Shown piece after piece: positions 3,524 through 63,432 of a DNA stretch of 64,000 nucleotides (positions within the stretch are counted from its first letter, which is position 1; every line of letters starts with the position of its first letter). The DNA is from Octopus vulgaris (lineage: Eukaryota), in NCBI GenBank assembly GCA_951406725.2, contig OX597818.1:113460001-113524000 (forward strand), in the 5' to 3' direction. The translations under genes and the position numbers were made by a program. Under the pieces are notes generated by a model. The model was not told the origin of the DNA, did not search any database, and worked only from the letters and a program-made list of their open reading frames with translations.

Positions 3524-4451
3524 TACACTTAACAAATTAGACTGTTGGAAAAGAAAAGAATCCTAACATCGGGCTACAACAAGTAGCCTTAGATGCCAAG
3601 AACGAACCTCCTATCAGGTTACAGCAACTAACCTTAGATGCCAAGGTCAAATTCCTCCATCAAAATTCATATACGATATCAAACCAATCTTGAAATAAAT
3701 CGTGAGAATACGAAATACATAGATGTAGATTCATCAGAGCCATTGGGTGTCAAGCATTTCAATATTACAAGTCAACGATGGATTTAGATGAGCAGTAATA
3801 TAAAATAACGGATATATCCTTACGATCTTTTCAGGAAATTGTGTTTGTATTGGGTAAATCTTCCAACTAATACAAATTGCAACATTTCCCTCATTAGAAT
3901 GAAATGAAGCGATTAAAATATTTTCGAAGTAGTTTTAAAATAATTTAGATATTATCTGCTTACAGAGCACAGGAGTGTTTGAAAATAATATAGTTTTTTA
4001 GAAAAGTTGTAAAAAGATGTTGTAAAAAATCTTTGTAAAATGAAAAATATTTGTGAAAATAGAATATTTGCGCAGATAAAGATGAAATATGTGTAAAAGT
4101 AGAATGTTATATCGGGTGAACATTTACATTTTAAAAGGAAAGAGGACAATAGTTCGAATTCAACCTAAGTTGATAGTTTAAATAAGCGTACATGGAAAGT
4201 TGGTGGGAATAATAAAGTAATTTAAATAATATTTTAAAACTAAATTAAATTATCATATGAGTAGAAGTACTTAGTATATACTAAAGCAATAATAAGAACT
4301 ATTTCCTTTATTACAGGAGGACAAGTATAAGATATCGTAACATATTGTATCGAATATAAGGGGTAATTAAATTAGAGGTATACTAAATGTATGAGGGAGT
4401 ACATTCGGAAGCAATACCTAAACCAATTTGGACTTGTAAATATTTAATGAA

Positions 4452-4760
4452 AGGAGCAGGCTGTCCGTTACGATGACGAGGGTCCCAGATGATACGATCG
4501 GGAAATTAACATGGAAGTGGCGGAGCATTCCACAGACACGTGTACCCTTAACGTAGTTCTCAAGGAGATTGAGCGTGACACAGAGTATGACAAGGCTGAC
4601 CCTTTGAAATACTGGTACTACTCACTTTTGCCAGTTGAGTGGACTGGAGCAACGTGAAATAAAGTGCCTTGCTCAATGACACAACGCGTCACCAGGAATT
4701 GAACTCACAACCTTATGATCGTGAGCCGAATGTCCTAACCACTAAGCCACGCGCCTTCAC
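4452..4760 (-). mobile_element. tRNA-headed CORE-like SINE (family A) with 10-bp TSD
   Basis: Minus strand: A box TGGCTTAGTGG, B box GAGTTCAATTCC, then CORE-like 'ttgagcaaggcactttatttcacgttgctccagtccactca'. ATTTAATGAA flanks it at 4442-4451 and 4761-4770. A closely similar copy lies at 13609-13934. Confidence 0.9.
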
Positions 4761-7165: not shown

Positions 7166-9502
7166 CTTATTCTTACTTCCCTTCCTATTATCACATCTGA
7201 ATTTTAGTACCGTTTATCAAACTATGGAACATCGCTATAACCATTTCCTATCTTTTTCTTTTTTTTCTTTCTATTTATCTCCCAAATATGTCTTACTATA
7301 ACCATCTCCAACTCCCGTCTACTATCTCTAACAAACACCATCTTTCTGACACTTGTAATCTCTCTAACCACTGCAAACCTTCTAACCATTACCACCTCCG
7401 TAACCCCTATCATCGCTCCCTCACGTCTGCCCCTTACCTCTTTTGCCATGACCAACACTCGTCCTACTATCATATATCCCTAACCACTCTGCTAACTGTT
7501 CTCCTTATCCAAACCAAAATAGATTTATTTTATTCACAAAATGTCAGAACTATACGCATAATTTTCTTTCTTTTTTTTTTTTTGCTTTGTTAAACGGCAC
7601 TATTTATTGATTAGTTTCATTTCTACAGCACTGGCACGTGCATACAGACACACACATGGAGACAAACACACTTTAATCTCTTTTCGGTTTACGTATTAAA
7701 ATAAAACGTCAGTCGAATAAAACGTCAAAAAACATATATAATATAATAAATGAATAAAACAGGAGCTGATTCTAAGAATTATATTTTTGAAATGTCAAAG
7801 ATTTCATTCAAAAGTACCGAACTTGTTTTGATGGATTGCAAAGAATAAGCTAGAGACAAGGATATAATATAAATCTTTAAAAGAAAATATACAATCTTTA
7901 GTAATAGAGGGAAAAAATAAGAACATAACAACATCCCATAATGCTTTCCAAAGCGAGAGATAATGGCAGAAATAAATTCCTAAAATAATAATGAAGAATG
8001 TATTAATATTTCAAAGAGTATCTTGTCCTGCATGCCGTGATCTTCTAAAAGCAATTTGATTGAAGAACTACAGTGGGAGATTAATATTTGGTTGAATAAG
8101 AACATTAATCAACAAAGACATTGCCAGCTTTTGGGTGGATTTAGACATTTGTTTTATCTTTATTGAAGTGCGTTGTTTTCTTTCTTTATTTTTTTGTTTT
8201 CATTATCACAATTTTGAAATGTGCTTAGAAGTGCATAAATTCCGCAGTGAACGGATTGCAAATGTTACCAAAAAAAAAAAATCAAAGATTAAACTTTTCA
8301 TTTTAAGGTAATATGGGTATCCGTGTTGTAGCTAACAATAACCAACTGCTTTTTGTTTTTATATGATAAATATGATAGAAATTGTTTGATCGTAACCAAT
8401 GTTATAACACCAACTGTAAATCTCTTCTTCAATTTATTGCTACATTAAATTTATTTATTCTTAAGTTTCGGACATTTTGATGGATAAAAGACAGAATAAA
8501 ACTCAATCCTTATATGGCTTTTAATGAAACTTCCTGATCGGTAATGCCAGAGATGATGTTAACATGTGTTTTATGTATTTGGCGTTAGATTTTAAAAGTG
8601 GCGTGTTTTCTTCATAACATTTACAAAAAATTATGTTGAGAATTTTTCAGGAATTTCCTGAACATAATTGATGAATGAGCCAAATATGTTGGAACAGGCA
8701 GCTATAAAATTATATATTTTAGCTTATTTTAAAGGCAGGTCGATGTAAATGCTTAAAAAACAGATCGGTGATTCGCATGTTTCAAGTGAAACTTATTAAA
8801 AGTATTTTCTTTTGTTTCTGAATAGGATTGGATTCTTAATTATCCATGAAGGCAACTTACCTTGCTGAGAGAACCCCGAGGGAACTGGTACCAAGACTCC
8901 CACGGTAAGGTACTTACAATGAACTTGCAACTTACGCAGAATCTGCTTAATTTCATCTATTTAACAGCTCAAAATGAACCTCGCGATATTAGTATCCTTG
9001 TACTTTGAGACAACATTTAAACAATATAAAGGATGCTGAATTCAGAGTTCTTATTTAAACCTCTAATGGTGCCTTAGACATTTTAAAAGCCTAAAGTTGT
9101 TACGAAACTATAGAAAAGCTGAAGAAAATATATACGTAAGTATTAAGCGATGTATCTGTTAGAAAGTTTCTTTATTAATATCAAGTGAAACTCGTTAAAC
9201 TGAAGACCATTCAATATTCTAAAATGCTGATTTCACACAGAGTACATCATGAGAAGGTGAAACTTGCAAGTAAATAACCATGCAACTAGTTAACGGATCT
9301 CAACTTAGTGTCCAATAGTTTATCATATAGGACAGTTCAAGCAGCATGGTGCACTTTTACTAAATCTGTTTCCTTGAAGTCGGTAGCCATATTCTATCTA
9401 AACACAGATATTGAACTGTTCTATATTTAAGAGATGAGGAATTAAGTACATTATTTACATTATTTACATTTGACGATATTTGTCCTCATCTTGTTTGTTG
9501 TT

Positions 9503-9548
9503 AACACAACGTTTCGGCTGATACACCCTCCAGCCTTCATCAGGTATC
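9503..9548 (-). ncRNA. Minimal type I hammerhead ribozyme (PLE type)
   Basis: Minus strand: GATAC-CTGATGA-A-GGCTG(gagggtgtat)CAGCC-GAAAC-GTT-GTGTT. Stem III is the loopless palindrome AACGTT, consistent with dimer-type minimal HHRs. Confidence 0.75.
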
Positions 9549-9622
9549 TTGAGGAAATTTCGAACCTAGGTTCTCATTCCTAATGTATTTTTCGATGTTG
9601 TTGTCATTATTATTATTATTAT

Positions 9623-9691
<69 letters not shown>

Positions 9692-9711
9692 ACTGTAGTA
9701 GTAGTAATAAG

Positions 9712-9783
9712 GTCACTGCCAGGAATCGAACTCGGAATCTTGAGGTTAGTAGCCCGTGCTCTTAACCACTACGCCATATGCCT
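9712..9783 (-). promoter_or_regulatory. tRNA-like Pol III internal promoter (A and B boxes)
   Basis: ggcataTGGCGTAGTGGttaagagcacgggCTACTAAcctcaagattccGAGTTCGATTCCtggcag. The stems are imperfect, so this is not a functional tRNA. Confidence 0.8.
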
Positions 9784-10449
9784 ATGGTGAAGGCTGGAGG
9801 GTATATCAGCCGAAACGTAGATATTGAACTGTATTTGAATCCGAAATTTGTTTAAAATTTAATTTTGCTTTAAACTTTCAGCTCTTAACTTTACATCATT
9901 TTTATTCACTTTTAAATATCTATTGTTTTTTAACAGTAAAACACAAATCCCCAAACTCGTGTACTCTCTTATTTGTCTAAAGCATTTCCAGAATATATCT
10001 ATATTCAGGTGTTTCTAATCATTTACAAAAATATCTCTAGATTTGTTCTGGAACTCAAAGACTATTCATATCTTATATTTCGGTAACCCCTAACTTTTTC
10101 AAAACGGTACCACCTAGAGGCACAACTCGGTCACTCGATTGCGGGAGTTAAAGTAGGCTCTAGTGTTTAAGAAAATAAACATTAGATGATGTACTCCAAG
10201 GTGCACTGCGTCCTTGGCACTCGTTGAGAGCTGATTTTAGGAGACAACCTTGCATAATATGCGAATTGAATGTAAAATGCTTTGCAAGATCTAATTGCCA
10301 AGATTTATTTCTTCTGTTCATTACTTGCTATAATATCAACTTACATATTGATTATTCTTCAAATAACGAATCTCCTATTTTCCTTCCTCTGAATCTTCCA
10401 ATATTTCCCGTATCTTATTTTATTTTAATTTCCACTGAAATTGATCGTA

Positions 10450-13339: not shown

Positions 13340-13960
13340 AATAGTACTCAGAGAGCGTAAACCTCCACCAAAAAGTATTATCCAAGGGAAAGGCAAGGTC
13401 CGATACACCTTTGCATCAGTGATGTCGCAACTCATTTCTACATCTGAGTGAACTGGAACAACGTGAAATAAAGTGTCTTACTCAAGAACACAACACGCAG
13501 CCCGGTCCGGGATTCGAACTCACAACCTCACGAAGGTTCGAGGTTGTAGCAGAAGACCCCTACCCACCCAAGACGCCACGCATGGTGTTTGAAAGCCCGC
13601 TCCTTACTTTAAAGACTCCGCCGGTTACGACGACGAGGGTCCCAGCTGATACGATCAACGGAACAGCTTGCTCGTGAAATTAACGTGCAAATGGCTGAGC
13701 ATTCCACAGACACGTGTACCCTTAACGTAGTTCTTCGGTGATAATCAGCGTGACACAGAGAGTGACAAGGCTGACCCTTTGAAATACAAGTACAACTCAT
13801 TTTTGCCAGCTGAGTGGACTGGAGCAACGTGAAATAAAGTGTCTTGCTCAAGGACACAACGCGTCGCCGGGAATCGAACTCACAACCTTACGATCATGAG
13901 CCGAATGCCCTAACCACTAAGCCACGCGCCCTCACCCGCTCCTTACTACTCAGCCACGTA
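13340..13960 (-). mobile_element. Nested SINE cluster; family A copy 13609-13934 with 13-bp TSD inside an older SINE head
   Basis: CCCGCTCCTTACT at 13596-13608 and 13935-13947; intact A/B boxes. Another CORE-like SINE piece at about 13400-13532. Confidence 0.88.
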
Positions 13961-20220: not shown

Positions 20221-20366
20221 TTTTTTTCTGGAAGTTATGAGGAAATAAAATCGGGGTAGTGCACACTTGTATAGGAGTGCGCTCTATTCTTTGCAAAGAA
20301 TAGAGCGCACTCCTATACAAGTGTGCACTACCCCGATTTTATTTCCTCATAACTTCCAGAAAAAAA
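20221..20366. repeat. Perfect 146-bp spacerless palindrome
   Basis: 73-bp arms centred between 20293 and 20294 (…ttctttg|caaagaa…). Confidence 0.95.
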
Positions 20367-22054: not shown

Positions 22055-22109
<55 letters not shown>

Positions 22110-22113
<4 letters not shown>

Positions 22114-22342
22114 TAGAAGAAATAAGGTCCTCAGAAATCTGGATGGTTTTATATTTACAGATTTTTATTAATATGTCACATGTTTTTATAAATCATATAT
22201 TAGCGCTTGCGTCCATTCTAGGAGATTCTACTAGAGTAGATGCAAGCGCTAATTTATCATTTATAAAAACATGTGACATATTAATAAAAATCTGTAAATG
22301 TAAAACCATCCAGATTTCTGAGTACCTTATTTCTTCTAATAT
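22110..22342. repeat. Fold-back inverted repeat embedded in (TA)n
   Basis: About 110-bp arms 'tattagaagaaataagg...' / '...ccttatttcttctaata' with a few mismatches; TA arrays on both sides. Confidence 0.9.
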
Positions 22343-22369
22343 ATAATACCTGTGCATCACCTCCAAACC

Positions 22370-22430
<61 letters not shown>

Positions 22431-25562: not shown

Positions 25563-26122
25563 CTTTCTACTCTAGGCACAAGGCCTGAAATTTGGGTGAT
25601 TACATCGACTCCAGTACTCAACTTAATTTATCGACTCCGTAAGGATAAAAGGCAAAGTTGACCTCGATGGAATTTGAACTCAGAACGTAGCAGCAGACGA
25701 AATACTTATTTATTTACTACCCACAAGGGGCTAAACACAGAGAGGAAAAACAAGGACAGACAAACGGATTAAGTCGATTATATCGACCCCAGTGCGTAAC
25801 TGGTACTTATTTAATGGACCCCGAAAGGATGAAAGGCAAAGTCGACCTCGGCGGAATTTGAACTCAGAACGTAGCGGCAGTCGAAATACCTATTTCTTTA
25901 TTACCCACAAGGGGCTAAACACAGAGGGGGCAAACAAGGACAGGCATAGGTATTAAGTCGATTACATCGACCCCAGTGCGTAACTGGTACTTAATTTATC
26001 GACCCCGAAAGAATGAAAGGCAAAGTCGACCTCGGCGGAATTTGAACTCAGAACGTAGCGGCAGACGAAATACCGCTAAGCATTTCGCCCGGCGTGCTAA
26101 CGTTTCTGCCAGCTCACCGCCT
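25563..26122 (-). mobile_element. SINE family C, trimer of an ~177-bp unit
   Basis: One head 'ggcggtgagctggcagaaacgttagcacgccgggcgaaatgc', then three B-box + Meta-like units; the last ends in tail B. Confidence 0.9.
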
Positions 26123-26724
26123 TTTCCTTTTTCTTGTACACCAATAAAACTTGTTAATTCACAGTAAAATATTCATCACTTGAATCAATCAATGAAAATT
26201 AGAAAGTAGGAGATGTTTTACTGTACATACACTGACAACATCTCAGACGACGAAATTGAGACGCTTCTATATTGACTGTCGATATCTTCAAGATGTTCAT
26301 TATGAAACTTCCAAGAATATTCTCTCCTAATTGGTAAAACTTCTCTTCAAAGGAAAAATTTAACTTGCATCCTAGTCTTAAGTTATTTCTGAAGTCTAGC
26401 TTCTCGCTTTCTGTAATCTTTATGCAACTATTTAACTTTTATGTCGACGCTGTGTCAACGACTAAACCAAATAATTGGAGTTAAATGCCAGTCTGTACAA
26501 AATAAAGCAATGAATATATATGAAATAGTTTCACGCTATTTCATTAGTTATGCTATTATATTTCATGTTTTGTTTGCTGTAGAAGGATTTATTGAATAAT
26601 AAATGTTCACTTAAGGGACAAAATTGAATTTTTTTCATTTTCATAATGATGAAAATTACGTTAAAACTCGAGGGAACATTGAAATAATTCTTGATCATTA
26701 TATATCTGAAACGATTCGAAATTT

Positions 26725-28774: not shown

Positions 28775-29560
28775 ATTTGTTGGTAACACCATGTTTCGGC
28801 TGATATACCTTCCAGCCTTCATCAGGTTTCTTGGGAAAATTTCGAACCTGGGTTCTCATTCCCAAGGTATTTTTCGATGTTATTATTATTATTATTCAGA
28901 GTACTGGCTGGAATCGAACTCGGAATCTTGGGGTTAGTAGCCCGCGCTTTTAACCACTACGCCATATGCCCGTGGAGCGAATTTTAGGGCTTATAAATCT
29001 AATATTTTCCTATCCTTCCTTAATATCGGTTCCCATATCTGCACTCGGTTTGCTTAGGAGGATTTTCTGTCCTAGCATATGAGCTGCTTCTTTTAGTTTT
29101 CGTATTTTCCAGTGGTGTTCTCTCTCTATTATTTTAACTTCCCCCCACAGGAGGAGGTTGTCTCCATTTTTCCATACATGATCAGCTATACCCGATTTAT
29201 CAATATCTCCTTATTTTGAGGGAGCGGCATGTTTCGCCTTCGTATAACCTACCATAGCTGCATGGGATGGAGTACAGGCAGTTTTGGGTCATATTCTCTT
29301 CTATTAGTGGTTTTACTCGAAGGAGATATTTGCGAAGAGTTGTATTACTCTTGAATACTGTCCTGATGTCATATGGGCCGCATATCTTTTGTATCTCTTC
29401 GGAGAGGCCTTTCACATAGGGTAGACAGACTGTGGATAGTTTATCGGTTCCATCCTCTCTTTTCTTCATAATTGGAGTGGATAGTATGTTTTGGGGGTAG
29501 CTGTTGCTTAATAGATTATTACTGAGATTGTAAATAATTCCTCATCTCTTAAATATAGAA
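28775..29560 (-). mobile_element. 5'-truncated Penelope-like element: GIY-YIG end, tRNA-like promoter, HHR and inverted 3' tail
   Basis: ORF remnant, then the module shared with 9420-9787. About 29529-29560 is the element's 3' tail in the opposite orientation (reverse complement of about 9419-9460). Confidence 0.88.
28991..29520 (-). pseudogene. PLE RT-thumb/GIY-YIG endonuclease C-terminus, frameshifted
   Basis: LPYVKGLSE..KICGPYDIRTVFKSNTTLR..L.RVK; NCLYSIPCSYGRLYEGET (GIY-YIG); KSGIADHVW; WKIRKLKEAAHM; WEPIL...DL* with stop at about 28991. Confidence 0.88.
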
Positions 29561-30312
29561 CTGTATTAACATCCTGTAGCTCCTTATTTTATAAATAACA
29601 AAATATTCCTAATCTCATATAATATATATTTATCAAGAAATAAAATCAAAACATTTCCATCTTTCATTGGCTTTAAAATTAAACCACAAGAATCGTTTAG
29701 CAGATTTGTTTTGACTTCTGTAATTATTTGTACAATCTCCGTTATTTCGTATATTCCCCATGATGCAGTTTTGTGTGAAGAAACATTATAATTACGCTTA
29801 AAAATTTAGTAGATCATTTATATCAATTACATACGCAGCCTACCCAGCCACAGGCCCTCTGAATAACGATGCCTTGCCGTTAACTCTGATTAGGCGGTTT
29901 CTTGTGAAACAAAACAAGAAATTTTACAGAAAGAAAGAATAATAGGAATTTCTTATGAAAACAGATTTTGTTACGAAATGTTTTGTTTTCCTTTTTAATT
30001 TAATAAAATATCTGAAGACTTCGGAAATTGTGAAACAGTAGGATAATGGTATATATTGAGAAAACAAAGACAACATTAAAACAAACTGAAGCAAAATGTT
30101 TACTTTTATAGATGAAGGTAGGAAAATTATAAAGTTGCTTCGTCGGAGCGACACTAGGAGGTAATAGACATTGAATGCCATTGAGATTTGTTCGCTAATC
30201 AACACTTTAGATCTTTTGCCAGAACCTCGACAGATGCTATTTATGACTGACGTTAAATGCCGTAAGCGAGAATTTCTTTGTTGTAGCTGTTGCTTAATTC
30301 CAAGTCCGATAC

Positions 30313-32639: not shown

Positions 32640-32920
32640 GCAATAATGCCTGGCTCATAGGACCGGTTTCCTTGGCGTATAGGTTCCCCACCTGGACGGA
32701 ACGCCGGTCCGTCGCAGCTGAGCTGCAAATTGCAGGAGGAAAGAGTAAGAGGAAGTTGTGACGAAAGAGTCAGCAGAAGTTCACCATTACCTTCTACCGG
32801 AGCCGCGTGGAGCTTAGGTGTTTCGCTCATAAACACACACATCGCCCGGTCTGAGATTCGAACCCACGATCCCTCGACCGCGAGTCCGCTGCTCTAACCA
32901 CTAGGCCATGTGTCTCCACA
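32640..32920 (-). mobile_element. tRNA-headed SINE family D
   Basis: TGGCCTAGTGG and GGTTCGAATCT boxes; head related to 59190-59512; V-domain-like 'ctgcgacggaccggcgttccgtccagg' near the tail. Confidence 0.85.
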
Positions 32921-46150: not shown

Positions 46151-47399
46151 CGAGGGGCATTCAATAAGTAATGCCCCTGACCCACTTGCAGTTGTTTGAT
46201 CTAGCTGAAATTTTGAGTGTGCAATTATTTGTCTCTCTATAGAGTAGGTAGCAAATTACAGCTCTGAACTAATTGGGGTTTCTGATTTACAGGTATTTGA
46301 ACTGAGTCAAGTGTGAAATGGAGCCTGTTGAGTGTCGAGTAGTGATCTGGTTTTTGTATTTGAAAGGACGCACACCACGGGAGACTTTTGATGAAATGAA
46401 AGTAACTTATGGTAATTATACCCCATCATATGACCTTGTAAAACGCCGGCATCGTGAATTCAAACATGGTCGGAACTCGGTGGAAACAGCTCCCAGATCT
46501 GGTCGCCCCACTTCTGCAATTGATGAGGCATCTGTCCGTCAAGTTGAGGCTGCCATTTTGGGAGATCGACGAATAACTTTTCGCCAAATAGCCCACGAGG
46601 TCAAGATTAGTACCGGTTCTGTGGAAACTATCATTCATGACCATTTGCATATGCAAAAGGTGTCTGCCAGATGGATTCCCAGGTTGCTCACACCTTTCCA
46701 GAAGCAAGAACGCGTCGAGTGCTCGAGGATGAATTTGGAGATGTGCCAAGAAGATGAGTCAAAATTTTTCAAAAGACTGATTACACAGGATAAAACCTGG
46801 GTCCATCACTATGATCTAGAGACCAAAGAAGGCAAGGGTGCAGCCCTCCACTGGCAAGGTCATGCTCACAGTCTTCTGGGACCAGGACGGAGTATTGATA
46901 ACAGATTTCCTGGCAAAGGGTACCACAATTACAGGAGCCTATTATGCTTCACTTTTGAGGAAATTAAGAGAAGCTATCAAAATCAAGAGGTGGGGCAAGA
47001 TCAGCAAAGACATCCTCCACCTGCAGGACAACGCTCCGGTCCACAACTCGCTTGTCGCCAGATCAGAAGCACAGGCGTGCGGCTATGAAATCCTCCCCAT
47101 CACCCCTACTCTCCTGACCTTGCACCCTCTGATTTTCACCTCTTCCCAGCCATGAAGTTGTTTTTGAAAGGAAAGCGTTTCCCAGATGATGCAGCTTTGA
47201 TTTCTGAAGTCACGTCGTGGTTGGAGGACCAAGCTGGGTCTTCTAAAAAAAAACGGTCTCCAGAGCTGCATCAAACGATGGGAGAAATGCGTAACTCTGG
47301 GTGGTTCCTATGTAGAGAAAGACTAATAACTGTGCAAAGTTTCGTTGCTCTACTGTTATGGGAAGTGTGTCACGGGCATTACTTATTGAACGCCCCTCG
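46151..47399 (+). mobile_element. Near-full-length mariner transposon
   Basis: TA-flanked ~31-bp TIRs cgaggggcattcaataagtaatgccc / gggcattacttattgaacgcccctcg. Confidence 0.96.
46318..47327 (+). pseudogene. Mariner (D,D34D-type) transposase, frameshifted
   Basis: PRSGRP, SARWIPRLLT, ITQDKTWVHHYD; frame switch near 46826; GKVMLTVFWD, LQDNAPVH; YSPDLAPSDF in another frame; MKLFLKGKRF. Confidence 0.93.
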
Positions 47400-48995: not shown

Positions 48996-49408
48996 ATATT
49001 ATTGTATTTCAAGACGCTATTTTTTTTTGCCAAATAAACACACGCACTATATATTCGTTCTTCGCTCGTTTATTATTGTTCTTCTTCTAACGCATGTTCA
49101 TTGTCCGGAAATCTTTCGTCACACATTTGTTACCACCTCAGCGAGATTTTCCGTCATCGTGTGTGCTCTTGCCCTGCTTATTCCATTCTGAGAATGGAAT
49201 AGGCAGAGCAAGAATAGAATAAGCTGAGCAAGAGCACACATGAAGACAGAAAGGGTCGCTGAGGAGGTCATAGATGCGAGACGAAGGATTTACGGACAAT
49301 GGACATGAGTTAGAATAAGAACAATAATAAACGAGTGAAGAACAAATATATAGTGCGTGTATTTATTTGACAAAAACAAAAATAACCATCTTGAAATACA
49401 ACAATATA
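48996..49408. repeat. ~410-bp diverged fold-back element
   Basis: Arms 'atattattgtatttcaaga…gtgtgctcttgc' / 'gcaagagcacac…tcttgaaatacaacaatat'; each arm carries a degenerate HHR-like CTGAGGA/T…GAC-GAA motif. Confidence 0.85.
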
Positions 49409-51589: not shown

Positions 51590-52152
51590 GAAGAAAGACA
51601 CACACATTCAAGTATATGTGCAAATATTCCTGTGAGAGTGCTTCTATTGATGGTGATCTGGTATGAATCTCTGTTGGTGAGTGTATTTCTGTCTGCGCAT
51701 CTAAACGATAATGTCAAAATAATACAAAACAAATAATACATTAATGACTTAATGTCTAATTTATTTTCTGTTTAAACCTTGGTGGGTTTTTTTTTTCTTT
51801 CCGATATTATTCCTCAGTGAACAGGAGATTTTCTATAAAGCTTTCAAAATTAATATCAATTTACATTAATCATCAGTCTGAGCTTCTCCAGTAGACATAT
51901 CTGAAGGTCAGCCCTAATGTGGATTTAAAATTTTGTAAATGATGGAATCTGGTAACAAAATGTGTATCATATTGTGTTCTGTGAATTAATAATGTATTGT
52001 TAAGAAAACACTTTATGTCTTCATATAGTCTCCTGATCAATGTAAATCGTTCTAATGTTCGATTTCGCACCTCGATATCGTGCAGTAGTTTTAACGGGGC
52101 TTCTTCCTGTCCAAGAATATTTTGCTTTGGCGGAATTTACTCTAATATATGT

Positions 52153-52697
52153 ATTTCTTTATTGCACACAAGGGGCTAAACATAGAGGGGACAAACAAGG
52201 ACAAAAAAACGGATTAAGTCGATTACAGTGCGAAACTGGTACTTTATTTATCGACCCCGAAAGGATGAAAGGCAAAGTTGAACTCAGAACATAACGGCAG
52301 ACGAAATACCTATTTATTTATTACCCACAAGGGGCTAAACAAGGACAGACAAACGGATTAAGTCGATTATATCGACCCCAGTGCGTAACTGGTATTTATT
52401 TAATCAACCCTGAAAGGATGAAAGGCAAAGTAGACCTCGGCGGAATTTGAACTCAGAACGTGGCGGCAGACGAAATACCCACAAGGGGCTAAACACAGAG
52501 GAGACAAACAAGGACAGACATAGGTATTAAGTCGATTACATCGACCCCAGTGCGAAACTGGCACTTTATTTATCGACCCCGAAAGGATGAAAGGCAAAGT
52601 CGACCTCGGCGGAATTTGAACTCACAACGCAACGACAGACGAAACACGGCTACGCATTTCGCCCGGCGTGCTAACGATTCTGCCAGCTCGCCGCCCT
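52153..52697 (-). mobile_element. SINE family C trimer with ~18-bp TSD
   Basis: ATTTA(C/G)TCTAATATATGT at 52135-52152 and 52698-52715; one head and three units. Confidence 0.9.
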
Positions 52698-53924
52698 ATT
52701 TAGTCTAATATATGTTTGCTTAAATAAACAATAGTCATGTCAGCCAATCGCTTTATTCTCCATCAATCTGTGTTTTATGTCACGCCGTCAATCCTCTTTT
52801 ATCATTGTGCTGCTAGCTATATTTCAACGTCCACTTTTACGTTCAAATACATTGTTGAAAGAAAGTAGGTAGACAATTGAATACTAGCAGAACACGACTT
52901 GAAATGTCTTCAGTAAAATTTCCAGAGCTCATCATAGTTTATAAAGCTAAAATAAAATAATTTTCCTATCAACAAAAGGAAATGTATAACTCGAACAAAA
53001 CTTCTCGCTTAGCTGTCAGAGATAAATTAAAGTTTCTGATGTAGTCATTTCAGGATTATATAAATCTATTCTATATTGTCGTAAACCTAGAGCATTATAC
53101 CCGTGCCGAAGGTGGGGGACGACGTATCTCTTAAGCGGTTAATGCTATGGAAACTGAGATTGTAATAATATGGTATATATTGATCTGAAAACGTATAAAT
53201 AAATACTTGAATGAAATCAGTAAGGTACCTTGCCGGAAGATGAATGTTTATAATATTATCTTTTGACATCCCAGGTCTAGTTTAGGCTAACCCAATAACA
53301 GTTTACAATTGTTCAGGCGTCACATGTGCAGTGTTTCTCAGTTATTTACGAGTTATTTTAGTCCATCCACGGTGGACGTAATAGCTTATACCGAACTCTA
53401 GCACTAAATCGTAAAACTAAAATTCCATTAATTTCCAATTGCTTCGGTTTCTGCAGCCAAATTGCACTTCAAAAGATCATATTTCACCAGAAGAAGTGCC
53501 TACTGACATAGATGAAGATAACTCCTTGCCATTAGCAATGTTTTGCATTCAACAACTTTTCAAATGTGGGCCGAGGAAATGGTTTTAATTTCAATAAGAA
53601 AGTTTTCTGAGAGTTTTTTTTTTTTTTGTCCTTTTAGGCTTAAATTAAAAAGTTGCTAAAGCCAAATCATTAATGGCTTTTTTTAGATTTCTATCGCTGA
53701 TTTTTTTTTTATTTACTGATACAAATCTAGGTCGTGATGGATAATTGAATTTTGTTTGAAAGATGAATTTTAAAGATAATCCATGAGAGATTAGTCCTGA
53801 CATTCCTATACTGTTTTTTTTTCAAAATTACTTGGGATATTTTTAACCATTCTTTTGTAAAGTAAACATATTTTCCTTACTTTCTGTTAGTATAAACAGT
53901 GTTAAAACACATTTTAAATCAGGG

Positions 53925-56553: not shown

Positions 56554-57539
56554 CAGGTTGCGGCAGAAATAAAGCCCTTTTTATTTACTTTTTTTTTTTA
56601 TTGTACAAAAATCTATTACAGTATTTAAAGAAATGAAAAAAAAAACAATTAATGAAATTAAATTGCAGTAGTTTCGAGAAATTTACTAAGTAATGCTCCA
56701 TCAAAATAACGTAATTCATTATGATTAAAAACTTAATTAACATGTTCAAAACGCTCTCTTTCGTTTTCAGTACAATGCTGAACCCCACCAGCAACACTTC
56801 TTCAAACCTTTTGACACATTTCCCCGCTAATTGCAGAAAATTTATCAGAAATTGCTTGTTTTAATTCATGAATTGTTTTCGGTTTCAGGGAATAAATAAG
56901 ATCTTTCAATACACCCACAAGGAAAATGTCAGGTGGTGTTAGGTCTGATGATGGCGATGACCACTCAATTGCTCAACGTTGTCCTATTCATCTCACCTTA
57001 AAATTAAGATTTAACCATTCCTGAACGTTTGACCTGTAGTGAGATGAAAGTAGAAAACTATACAAATTAAGGCGGCGAGCTGGCAGAAACTTTAGCACGC
57101 CGGGCAAAATGCTTAGCAGTATTTCGTCTGCTGCTACGTTCTGAGTTCAAATTCCACCGAGGTTGACTTTGCCTTTTATCCTTTCCGGGTCGATAAATTA
57201 AGTACCAGTTACGCACTGGGGTCGATGTAATCGACTTAATCCCTTTGTCTGTCCTTGTTTGTCCTCTCTGAGTTTAGCCCCTTGTGGGTAGTAAAGAAAT
57301 AGGTATTTCGTCTGCCGCTACGTTCTGAGTTCAAATTCCGCTGAGGTCGACTTTGCCTTTCATCCTTTCCGGGTCGATAAATTGAGTACCAGTTACGCAC
57401 TGGGGTCGATATAATCAACTTAATCCGTTTGTCTGTCCTTGTTTGTCCTCTCTGTGTTTAGCCCCTTGTGGGTAGTAAAGAAATACAAAACTATACAAAT
57501 TATACAAATAAGAAAGAGCGTAACTTCTGCCGCACCCTG
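56554..57539 (-). mobile_element. Internally deleted Tc1/mariner-superfamily element containing a SINE
   Basis: TA-flanked TIRs caggttgcggcagaa / ttctgccgcaccctg; remnant IEWSSPSSDLTPPDIFL..VLKD (cf. WP.RSPDL.P.DF.LWG.LK) at about 56900-56970. Confidence 0.8.
57070..57486 (+). mobile_element. SINE family C dimer with 16-bp TSD
   Basis: AAAACTATACAAATTA at 57054-57069 and 57487-57502. Confidence 0.92.
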
Positions 57540-62994: not shown

Positions 62995-63432
62995 TAGTTG
63001 TTTTGTCCATTTCTGTGTTTGGTCCCCTGTGGGCATTAAAGAAATTGGTATTTCGTCTGTCTTTAGGTTCTGAGTTCAAAATTCCGCCAACGTCGACTTT
63101 GCCTTTCATCCCTTCGGGGTCGATACATTAATACCAGTTACAGACTGGGGTCGATGTAATCGACTTAATCCCTTTGTCTGTCCTTGTTTTTCCCCTCTAT
63201 GTTTAGCCCCTTGAAGGCAATAAAGAAATAAGAAACGTTAGCAATCCGGACGAAATACTTAGCGGTATTTCGTCTGTCTATACGTTCTGAGTTCAAATTA
63301 CGCCGAGGTCGACTTTGCCTTTTATACTTTCGGGGGTCGAGGAAATAAGTGACAGTTGCATACTGGGGTCGATCTAATCGTCTGGCCTCTCTCCCCAAAA
63401 ATTTAGGACCTTGTGCCTAGAGTAGAAAAGAA
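62995..63432 (+). mobile_element. SINE family C multimer
   Basis: Tail A remnant, a unit with tail A, then a partial head and a unit with tail B. Older fragments lie at 61700-62030. Confidence 0.85.

What the first reader, a model, noticed from the sequence alone, without database searches (positions are those of the whole stretch)
9406..9832. Apparent Penelope-mobilised SINE: tRNA head + microsatellite + ribozyme, with TSD and inverted HHR piece
Seen: a 399-bp insert between 14-bp direct repeats with no ORF sequence. Homology to the coding copy begins only about 5 nt upstream of the tRNA-like head, which is where a Pol III transcript would start. It is preceded by a 30-bp inverted copy of its own HHR stem II/GAAAC. 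The internal repeat has grown to (TAC)n(TAA)n. Known: inverted terminal fragments are a PLE integration hallmark, and classical SINEs borrow LINE 3' tails. Inference: a Pol III SINE-like RNA copied by PLE machinery.
Basis: partly seen in the sequence, partly recalled or inferred. Interest (0 to 1): 0.85.

Follow-up and report, generated by a model that had tools for sequence, protein, structure and literature searches.

The report
Penelope retroelement making its own SINE
This insert is one of thousands of short copies of the end repeat of a Penelope-like jumping gene that carries a tRNA-like start module, and most copies begin at that module, so the jumping gene likely mass-produces SINE-like copies from a promoter predicted to be read by RNA polymerase III.

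Summary
Its last ~158 nt encode the first ~53 codons of the partner ORF. The insert is a solo pseudo-LTR of a canonical RT + GIY-YIG Penelope-like element (PLE), and the tRNA-like A/B-box head belongs to that autonomous element too (23 of 30 ORF-picked copies). 5' ends pile up at the head (46 of 72 copies picked without regard to their 5' end; 18-mer counts drop 6,097 to 1,090 across it). A-run chimeras put the RNA start at a G six bases before the head. PLE hallmarks are present: 12+ bp target duplications (35 of 56; control 1 of 150), inverted second halves and two ends 35-40 nt apart. Short and long copies share one consensus. Best reading: internal reverse-transcription initiation on a head-started transcript of the PLE itself, probably Pol III, not a separate SINE lineage. 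Untested: polymerase identity, ribozyme activity, empty site (none found). A strong hairpin at the head start is a rival. This scan noted tRNA-bearing, hammerhead-free Penelope-type repeats in other genomes, not this family.

The parts
9406..9419 (+). Target-site duplication, left copy (12-14 bp)
   Evidence: exact repeat of 9819-9832; family-wide duplications of 12+ bp in 35 of 56 two-ended copies vs 1 of 150 mismatched pairs
9819..9832 (+). Target-site duplication, right copy
   Evidence: one substitution at 9829 in runs X4 and X7
9420..9787 (-). Solo pseudo-LTR of the PLE (sense half of the insertion), about 96% identical to the family consensus
9710..9787 (-). tRNA-like head; this copy starts 4 nt before tRNA position 1, the family RNA start is inferred 6 nt before it
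   Evidence: 46 of 73 positions identical to a host tRNA-Arg(TCG), z 8.3 vs shuffles
9766..9776 (-). A box
   Evidence: sequence; box consensus recalled
9722..9733 (-). B box
   Evidence: sequence; box consensus recalled
9606..9708 (-). (TAC)n(TAA)n microsatellite; usually (AAT)n of very variable length in other copies
9503..9549 (-). Minimal type I hammerhead motif: stem I, CTGATGA (9543-9537), stem II, GAAA, palindromic AACGTT in place of stem III; predicted cut between 9508 and 9507
   Evidence: architecture as described in PMC4209133; activity untested
9420..9577 (-). First ~53 codons of the PLE ORF (decayed), overlapping the hammerhead and ending at the distal of two family end points
9785..9818 (+). 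Inverted second half (34 bp), ending 1 nt short of the predicted hammerhead cut; unusually short for the family
   Evidence: junction also present in runs X4, X5, X7
28776..29564 (-). Second copy in the window: inverted 3' end, C-terminal ORF fragment with GIY-YIG-like region, same head, (AAT)n and hammerhead
   Evidence: 48% identical to P0020 residues 656-764, pairwise E 3e-34

Best explanation
The insert is a solo pseudo-LTR of an RT + GIY-YIG Penelope-like element whose end repeat starts with a tRNA-like A/B-box module, and it was likely copied from an RNA that begins six bases before that module, a start predicted to be set by RNA polymerase III. Shown: the head is part of the autonomous element, the short unit ends inside the first ~55 ORF codons at two preferred points 35-40 nt apart, most copies start at the head, and they carry PLE-type junctions. 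Inferred: the PLE protein binds the transcript in the ORF's first codons, nicks both target strands, starts reverse transcription internally at the two points (as shown in vitro for the anole PLE, PMC11167929) and runs about 250-300 nt to the RNA's 5' end. The two cDNAs then join back to back, giving the inverted half and the target duplication. The template is likely the upstream pseudo-LTR of ORF-bearing master loci, so the element would make its own SINE-like progeny (about 80% of head-bearing copies); long copies would come from read-through of tandem masters. The hammerhead is probably a passenger in this step.
For: Head directly behind the ORF in 23 of 30 ORF-picked loci. Upstream pseudo-LTR with head runs into the ORF in L268. 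Exact 18-mer counts: ORF about -175: 917; UTR -25..-8: 1,090; head +30..+47: 6,097. Of 84 insertions picked by a motif downstream of the head, 72 keep head sequence: 46 start at -8..+8, 10 reach further upstream, 16 start inside the head; ends per base are about 16 times denser in the peak than in the 300 nt upstream. In 12 loci both halves stop at the head start (2 are compound). Six loci show an ORF piece, an untemplated A-run, then the head starting at -6, -6, -5, -6, -4, -6 (L247, L253, L264, L270, L272, L275), the pattern expected when RT runs off a real 5' end and jumps onto an adenylated 3' end; 0 of 9 other internal junctions printed had such a run. Genome-wide, 6 of 8 loci with A6 close to the head have the -6 G next to the run. 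In 54 of 56 two-ended copies one end is at 184-195 and the other at 124-166 of the 195-nt body. No diagnostic position separates long from short copies (median non-CpG divergence 5.9% vs 4.5%, p 0.20). No run of four or more T in the 2,641-nt stitched consensus.
Against: No RNA data: all laid runs were contigs of DNA or unknown kind. Adenylated 3' ends and the need to translate the ORF fit Pol II at least as well, and D. virilis Penelope has an internal LINE-like promoter with a defined start in its pseudo-LTR (PMC2377424 passages). The strongest 30-nt hairpin of the 2,050-nt consensus (-10.8 kcal/mol) straddles the head start. The absence of T-runs is not significant (codon shuffle P 0.14). 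The long-versus-short comparison has only 10 unbiased long copies. No intact master copy was found. The tRNA isotype is insecure and the acceptor stem does not pair.
Confidence: 0.55

Rival explanations
1. A true, independent SINE: short copies are themselves Pol III-transcribed masters that borrow PLE proteins.
For: Same 5' peak and intact A/B boxes; short copies outnumber long ones about 5 to 1; no T4 terminator inside the unit. An imperfect inverted repeat of the head's first bases just upstream of it in the long element may record an old joining of a head-started unit to the ORF (inference).
Against: No diagnostic substitutions between short and long copies. Chimeras show templates that continued hundreds of bases into the ORF. 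Short copies end at the initiation points, while the anole PLE needed RNA downstream of them (first 172 nt of ORF; PMC11167929; cross-species inference).
Confidence: 0.2
2. The sharp 5' end is the ordinary Pol II start of the PLE pseudo-LTR promoter; the tRNA-like boxes are a captured relic or only assist it. Short copies are still strong-stop-like products of internal initiation.
For: Adenylated 3' ends at several ORF positions; one chimera has an extra G before -6, as a copied cap could leave (L275); precedent in D. virilis Penelope (PMC2377424); the ORF must be translated.
Against: The start sits 13 nt before an intact A box, typical type 2 Pol III geometry (recalled); no canonical polyadenylation signal was seen by eye before the A-runs.
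Confidence: 0.15
3. No promoter is involved: RT stalls or the cDNA snaps back at the hairpin spanning -17..+12, or a nuclease cuts the long RNA there.
For: It is the strongest local hairpin in the consensus; several junctions are symmetric around it.
Against: A stall would be expected at the 3' foot of the stem (about +9..+12), not at -6 after the stem is already copied (inference). Many junctions are asymmetric, symmetric copies have two different outer ends, and A-run jumps cluster at one base. A nuclease cut is not excluded by these points.
Confidence: 0.09
4. Ordinary random 5' truncation of the autonomous PLE.
For: 10 of 72 copies do end at scattered upstream positions.
Against: 5.6-fold step in k-mer counts across about 55 nt against 1.2-fold over the next 150 nt; 46 of 72 ends within 17 nt.
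Confidence: 0.01

Closest known systems
Canonical EN+ Penelope-like elements (Penelope/Poseidon type, e.g. anole PAc; PMC11167929, PMC8557442)
   Same: RT followed by a C-terminal GIY-YIG-type region; ORF starting inside the pseudo-LTR across a minimal hammerhead; inverted 5'-truncated half; 30-40 nt 'tail' between two end points.
   Different: The pseudo-LTR begins with a tRNA-like A/B-box module, and most insertions are unit-length solo pseudo-LTRs starting at it instead of being variably truncated.
Schistosome Sm-alpha / Sj-alpha SINE-like elements (seen through PMC2770079 and PMC8490949 passages)
   Same: tRNA-related, high-copy short element carrying a type I hammerhead.
   Different: In the passages read no PLE partner is shown for them; here the partner is identified, shares the whole unit including the head, and leaves PLE junctions. 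The hammerhead here is the minimal PLE type.
Animal non-LTR retrozymes (PMC7229834; bioRxiv 10.64898/2026.07.22.740005)
   Same: Short, non-autonomous, hammerhead-bearing, derived from PLE pseudo-LTRs.
   Different: Retrozymes are defined by head-to-tail arrays; this family is mostly dispersed monomers with an inverted half, its ends are not set by the ribozyme cut, and it has a tRNA-like head ('tRNA' 0 hits in the preprint's text).
Classical tRNA-derived SINEs, including octopus OR1/OR2 (CORE-SINEs per PMC4758252 and PMC4824008 passages)
   Same: tRNA-like head with A and B boxes, defined 5' end, target duplications, 3' part shared with an autonomous partner; the head is 62-68% like the heads of other SINE-like repeats in the window.
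   Different: The partner is a PLE, the shared part is the ORF's start, the partner carries the head too, and there is no room for a CORE domain between head and PLE sequence. The octopus OK family could not be compared (paper not held).

Membership tests
EN+ Penelope-like element (partner) | Single ORF with PLE-type RT | tested here: met
   RT motifs in L069, L071, L083, L250; RVT_1 hit below cut-off for the fragment, above it for homologues P0001, P0020, P0023; 55-68% identity to the closest relatives
EN+ Penelope-like element (partner) | C-terminal GIY-YIG endonuclease | tested here: inconclusive
   No Pfam GIY-YIG hit for the window fragment or P0020. The fragment aligns to the C-terminal region of P0020; relatives P0082 and P0087 carry PF01541 and P0030 is named a GIY-YIG endonuclease by its source. 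Motif reading is recalled.
EN+ Penelope-like element (partner) | Pseudo-LTR in partial tandem before the ORF, containing a hammerhead motif | tested here: met
   L268, L246, L247, L256, L266
EN+ Penelope-like element (partner) | Inverted 5' half and 30-40 nt tail at one end | tested here: met
   56 two-ended copies among 85 loci (4 compound or duplicate loci skipped); 54 of 56 with one long and one short end
Penelope/Poseidon clade | Placement in an RT phylogeny | not tested
   No tree with named references was built; assignment rests on domain order and likeness to PAc
tRNA-derived SINE | tRNA-related head with A and B boxes | tested here: met
   not called by default ARAGORN or Rfam
tRNA-derived SINE | Defined 5' end at the head | tested here: met
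tRNA-derived SINE | Transcribed by RNA polymerase III | not testable with these tools
   No raw RNA reads were offered
tRNA-derived SINE | Independent non-autonomous lineage with its own masters | tested here: inconclusive
   No diagnostic differences from ORF-bearing copies, but only 10 unbiased long copies
tRNA-derived SINE | Non-coding throughout | tested here: not met
   Last ~158 nt are the partner ORF's first codons
Non-LTR retrozyme | Head-to-tail tandem units delimited by hammerheads | tested here: not met
   Direct tandems of the unit or its body seen in 3 of 85 loci (L109, L166, L180); ends fall about 50-95 nt past the predicted cut
Minimal type I hammerhead | Conserved core, stems I and II, palindromic stem III replacement | tested here: met
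   the cofold did not return the active dimer fold
Minimal type I hammerhead | Self-cleavage as dimer or with protein help | not testable with these tools
   needs an in vitro assay

The most novel reading that the evidence does not exclude
An autonomous Penelope-like retrotransposon captured a tRNA/SINE-type internal Pol III promoter as the start of its pseudo-LTR. Because PLE reverse transcription starts internally near the 5' end of such a transcript, the element generates a SINE-like family on the order of 10^4 copies directly from itself, a route to SINE birth without any LINE; the T-run-free ORF might even be transcribed whole by Pol III.
Probability: 0.4. Interest if true: 0.8.

Novelty: new variant of a known kind. 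Interest (0 to 1): 0.62.

Why it matters
SINEs are normally paired with LINEs. Here a tRNA-headed, unit-length element is tied sequence-for-sequence to a Penelope-like partner. The genomic record also matches the in vitro finding that PLE reverse transcription starts internally at two sites, and adds a mapped template 5' end and end-to-end template jumps. It offers a testable route by which SINE-like families and retrozymes arise from pseudo-LTRs, a candidate explanation for the tRNA-plus-hammerhead Sm-alpha elements, and a warning that some 'unclassified SINEs' in such genomes may be PLE products.

Tried and rejected
Default ARAGORN and Rfam (gathering and E-value modes) found neither the head nor the hammerhead; a relaxed ARAGORN call fell on the opposite strand and was disregarded. 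Loci L001-L030 were picked with a query spanning the inverted junction and L031-L060 by likeness to this copy, so neither set was used for the 5'-end count. Empty site: none seen; contigs of X4, X5 and X7 (three organism labels) run from both flanks into the insert, and X12 does not cover the junctions. RNase P cutting at tRNA position 1 was considered and thought unlikely: the acceptor stem does not pair and many copies start 2-6 nt upstream. The idea that the inverted piece marks a ribozyme-cut RNA rests on this one copy; no pile-up of ends at the cut site was seen in the 85 loci. T-run avoidance is not significant. The metagenome scan gave 9 distant loci, none with an A/B-box pattern by my regular expression. 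A search for more chimeras at one recurrent ORF end found only the known locus. Two family motifs were absent from the supplements held for PMC13282606 and PMC8557442; the repeat library itself, Repbase and Dfam were not available.

Full report
Observation. On the minus strand the region reads: target repeat, a 34-bp inverted piece, a tRNA-like head, (TAC)n(TAA)n, a 50-nt linker, a hammerhead motif, about 85 further bases and the second target repeat. The repeats at 9406-9419 and 9819-9832 are exact and enclose 399 bp. The inverted piece (+9785-9818) matches 9542-9509 at 32 of 34 positions. A second copy at 28776-29564 has the same order of parts but about 550 nt of coding sequence before the head. 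The window lies in a 2.8-Gb genome of 227 contigs; an octopus host is my inference from that size and from recalled repeat types.

The partner. Searching with the coding fragment gave 30 loci; 23 have the head directly behind the ORF, and of the 7 without it 4 are near-identical duplicates. Longer copies carry RT motifs, and relatives in the protein database are 55-68% identical at best, with RT domains and in a few cases a GIY-YIG label. Walking upstream (25 loci fetched of 40 matches) showed that the sequence after the hammerhead continues into the ORF; in L268 an upstream repeat with 62 nt of ORF end, head, microsatellite and hammerhead runs straight into it. The start codon lies inside the short unit (window 9577), and the window's translation matches the N-terminus of the full-length homologue P0020. 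So the short unit is the PLE's pseudo-LTR, the head is part of it, and 'no ORF sequence' is wrong.

Where copies begin. Exact 18-mers without CpG occur 917 times about 175 nt upstream of the head, 1,090 times at -25..-8 and 6,097 times inside the head; a degenerate hammerhead pattern occurs 9,199 times. These counts include inverted halves and miss diverged copies, so the family is on the order of 10^4 insertions (estimate). For an unbiased sample I took the first 100 listed matches of a 25-mer downstream of the head (5,342 in all), fetched 94 of them as 90 loci, and dropped 5 overlapping loci and 1 duplicate. Of the 84 left, 12 keep no head; of 72 that do, 46 start at -8..+8, 10 further upstream (-46 to -1891) and 16 inside the head. 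Seven starts first mapped at -14 to -17 were reassigned to -7 because they came from an inverted copy of the head matching the upstream palindrome. All sampled loci are from one contig.

A real RNA end. Six loci contain an ORF piece in the same orientation, then an untemplated run of 7-12 A, then the head starting at -6, -6, -5, -6, -4 and -6 (L247, L253, L264, L270, L272, L275). Nine other internal junctions printed for comparison had no such run. A genome-wide pattern found 17 distinct loci with A7 within 14 nt of the head; 7 start at -6, none extends beyond about -10, and the rest start between -8 and +1 or have extra bases between. A tighter pattern gave 8 loci, 6 with the -6 G next to the run (overlapping with the former set). 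I read these as RT running off a 5' end and jumping to an adenylated 3' end; this is inference. They also show that templates extended into the ORF beyond the points where copies end. In loci such as L287 and L292 the A-run sits at an inverted junction and could have another origin.

Integration signature. Among 85 loci, 56 had both outward-facing ends mapped (4 compound or duplicate loci skipped). Repeats of 12+ bp with at most one mismatch flank 35 of them, against 1 of 150 mismatched pairs; at 10+ bp the figures are 40 of 56 and 18 of 150. In 54 of 56, one end lies at 184-195 and the other at 124-166 of the 195-nt body (the reference stops at 195). This is the 30-40 nt 'tail' described for PLEs (PMC8557442 passages), which Frangieh et al. 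traced to two internal RT start sites about 111-150 nt into the ORF, with hammerhead cleavage not required in vitro (PMC11167929, parts 1-2 of 4 read). Here the two points lie about 130 and 165 nt into the ORF. The window copy is atypical in that its inverted half stops 1 nt short of the predicted ribozyme cut instead of reaching the proximal point.

The head. It aligns best to a host tRNA-Arg(TCG) (46 of 73 positions, z 8.3) among 25 distinct tRNA genes from 30 fetched loci, with tRNA-Ala and another tRNA-Arg close behind, and many isotypes were not sampled. Identity is concentrated around the A and B boxes, and the acceptor stem does not pair. It is also 62-68% like heads of other SINE-like repeats in the window, so it may have come through a SINE. 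The -6 G follows a pyrimidine and lies 13 nt before the A box, the usual geometry of a type 2 Pol III start (recalled). Against this: the A-tails, the need to translate the ORF, the Pol II-like internal promoter of D. virilis Penelope (PMC2377424 passages), and a hairpin across -17..+12 that is the strongest 30-nt fold in the consensus.

Independent SINE or by-product? Long and short copies share one consensus. In the large but selection-biased set (31 long, 103 short halves) differences were scattered deletions and CpG decay; in the unbiased set (10 long, 46 short) divergence did not differ significantly. With chimeras showing longer templates, and the anole PLE needing RNA beyond the start sites, I favour production from the upstream pseudo-LTR of ORF-bearing masters, but the power to detect short-only subfamilies was low.

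Other runs. Contigs from X4, X5 and X7 join both flanks to the insert, so the insertion and its short inverted piece are real and shared by three organism labels; no empty site was seen and no RNA evidence could be obtained.

Literature. Nine searches returned no paper describing a PLE with a tRNA-derived head in its pseudo-LTR or a tRNA-headed element with a demonstrated PLE partner. Read: PMC11167929 (parts 1-2 of 4), PMC4209133 (part 1 of 4 and passages), bioRxiv 10.64898/2026.07.22.740005 (part 1 of 5 and passages; supplements closed), and passages of PMC8557442, PMC2377424, PMC2770079, PMC8490949, PMC13282606, PMC4758252, PMC4824008, PMC7229834 and PMC10886601, with supplement searches for PMC13282606 and PMC8557442. 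[quoted passage not shown] The family may already sit in a repeat library under a generic label, which I could not check. Three earlier notes of this scan describe tRNA-bearing, hammerhead-free repeats with Penelope-type junctions in other genomes; I did not test them.

Verdict. A real PLE-made insertion and a new variant of a known kind. It works like a SINE in having a tRNA-like head, a fixed 5' end and high copy number, but it is most likely the solo pseudo-LTR of an element that carries the head itself. Interest 0.62.

Noticed in passing
window 46306-47088 (+): 260-codon open frame that looks like a Tc1/mariner-type transposase fragment (identification from recalled motifs).
   Followed up: no
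window 20221-20366; 22058-22408; 48996-49407: A perfect 146-bp palindrome and two long imperfect ones in the self-comparison.
   Followed up: no
window 25564-26126, 52150-52707, 57059-57491, 62998-63432: A common dispersed repeat arranged as 169-184-bp tandem units.
   Followed up: no
window 4450-4760, 13615-13935, 32883-32912: Other SINE-like repeats whose heads resemble the head studied here; possible donors of the module.
   Followed up: partly
L212 295-1422 (-): A 375-codon open frame of a different PLE-like element with RT-end and GIY-YIG-like motifs next to a copy of this family; usable as a head-less control family.
   Followed up: partly
L264, L272, L251, L268 (about 665 nt from the start of the body): Four copies break off or switch template at nearly the same ORF position, two with an A-run; possibly a preferred RNA 3' end.
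   Followed up: partly
L270, L275: Permuted copies: ORF start region, A-run, head, then body up to near the proximal end point, as if one RNA were copied end to end or as a circle.
   Followed up: partly
L071, L073, L074, L076, L077: One truncated PLE copy repeated with 98-99.7% identical flanks in four of these loci on different contigs, i.e. segmental duplication.
   Followed up: no
long-element consensus, -17..+12 around the head start: The bases before the head are an imperfect inverted copy of the head's first bases, which may be the scar of the event that joined the head to the ORF.
   Followed up: partly
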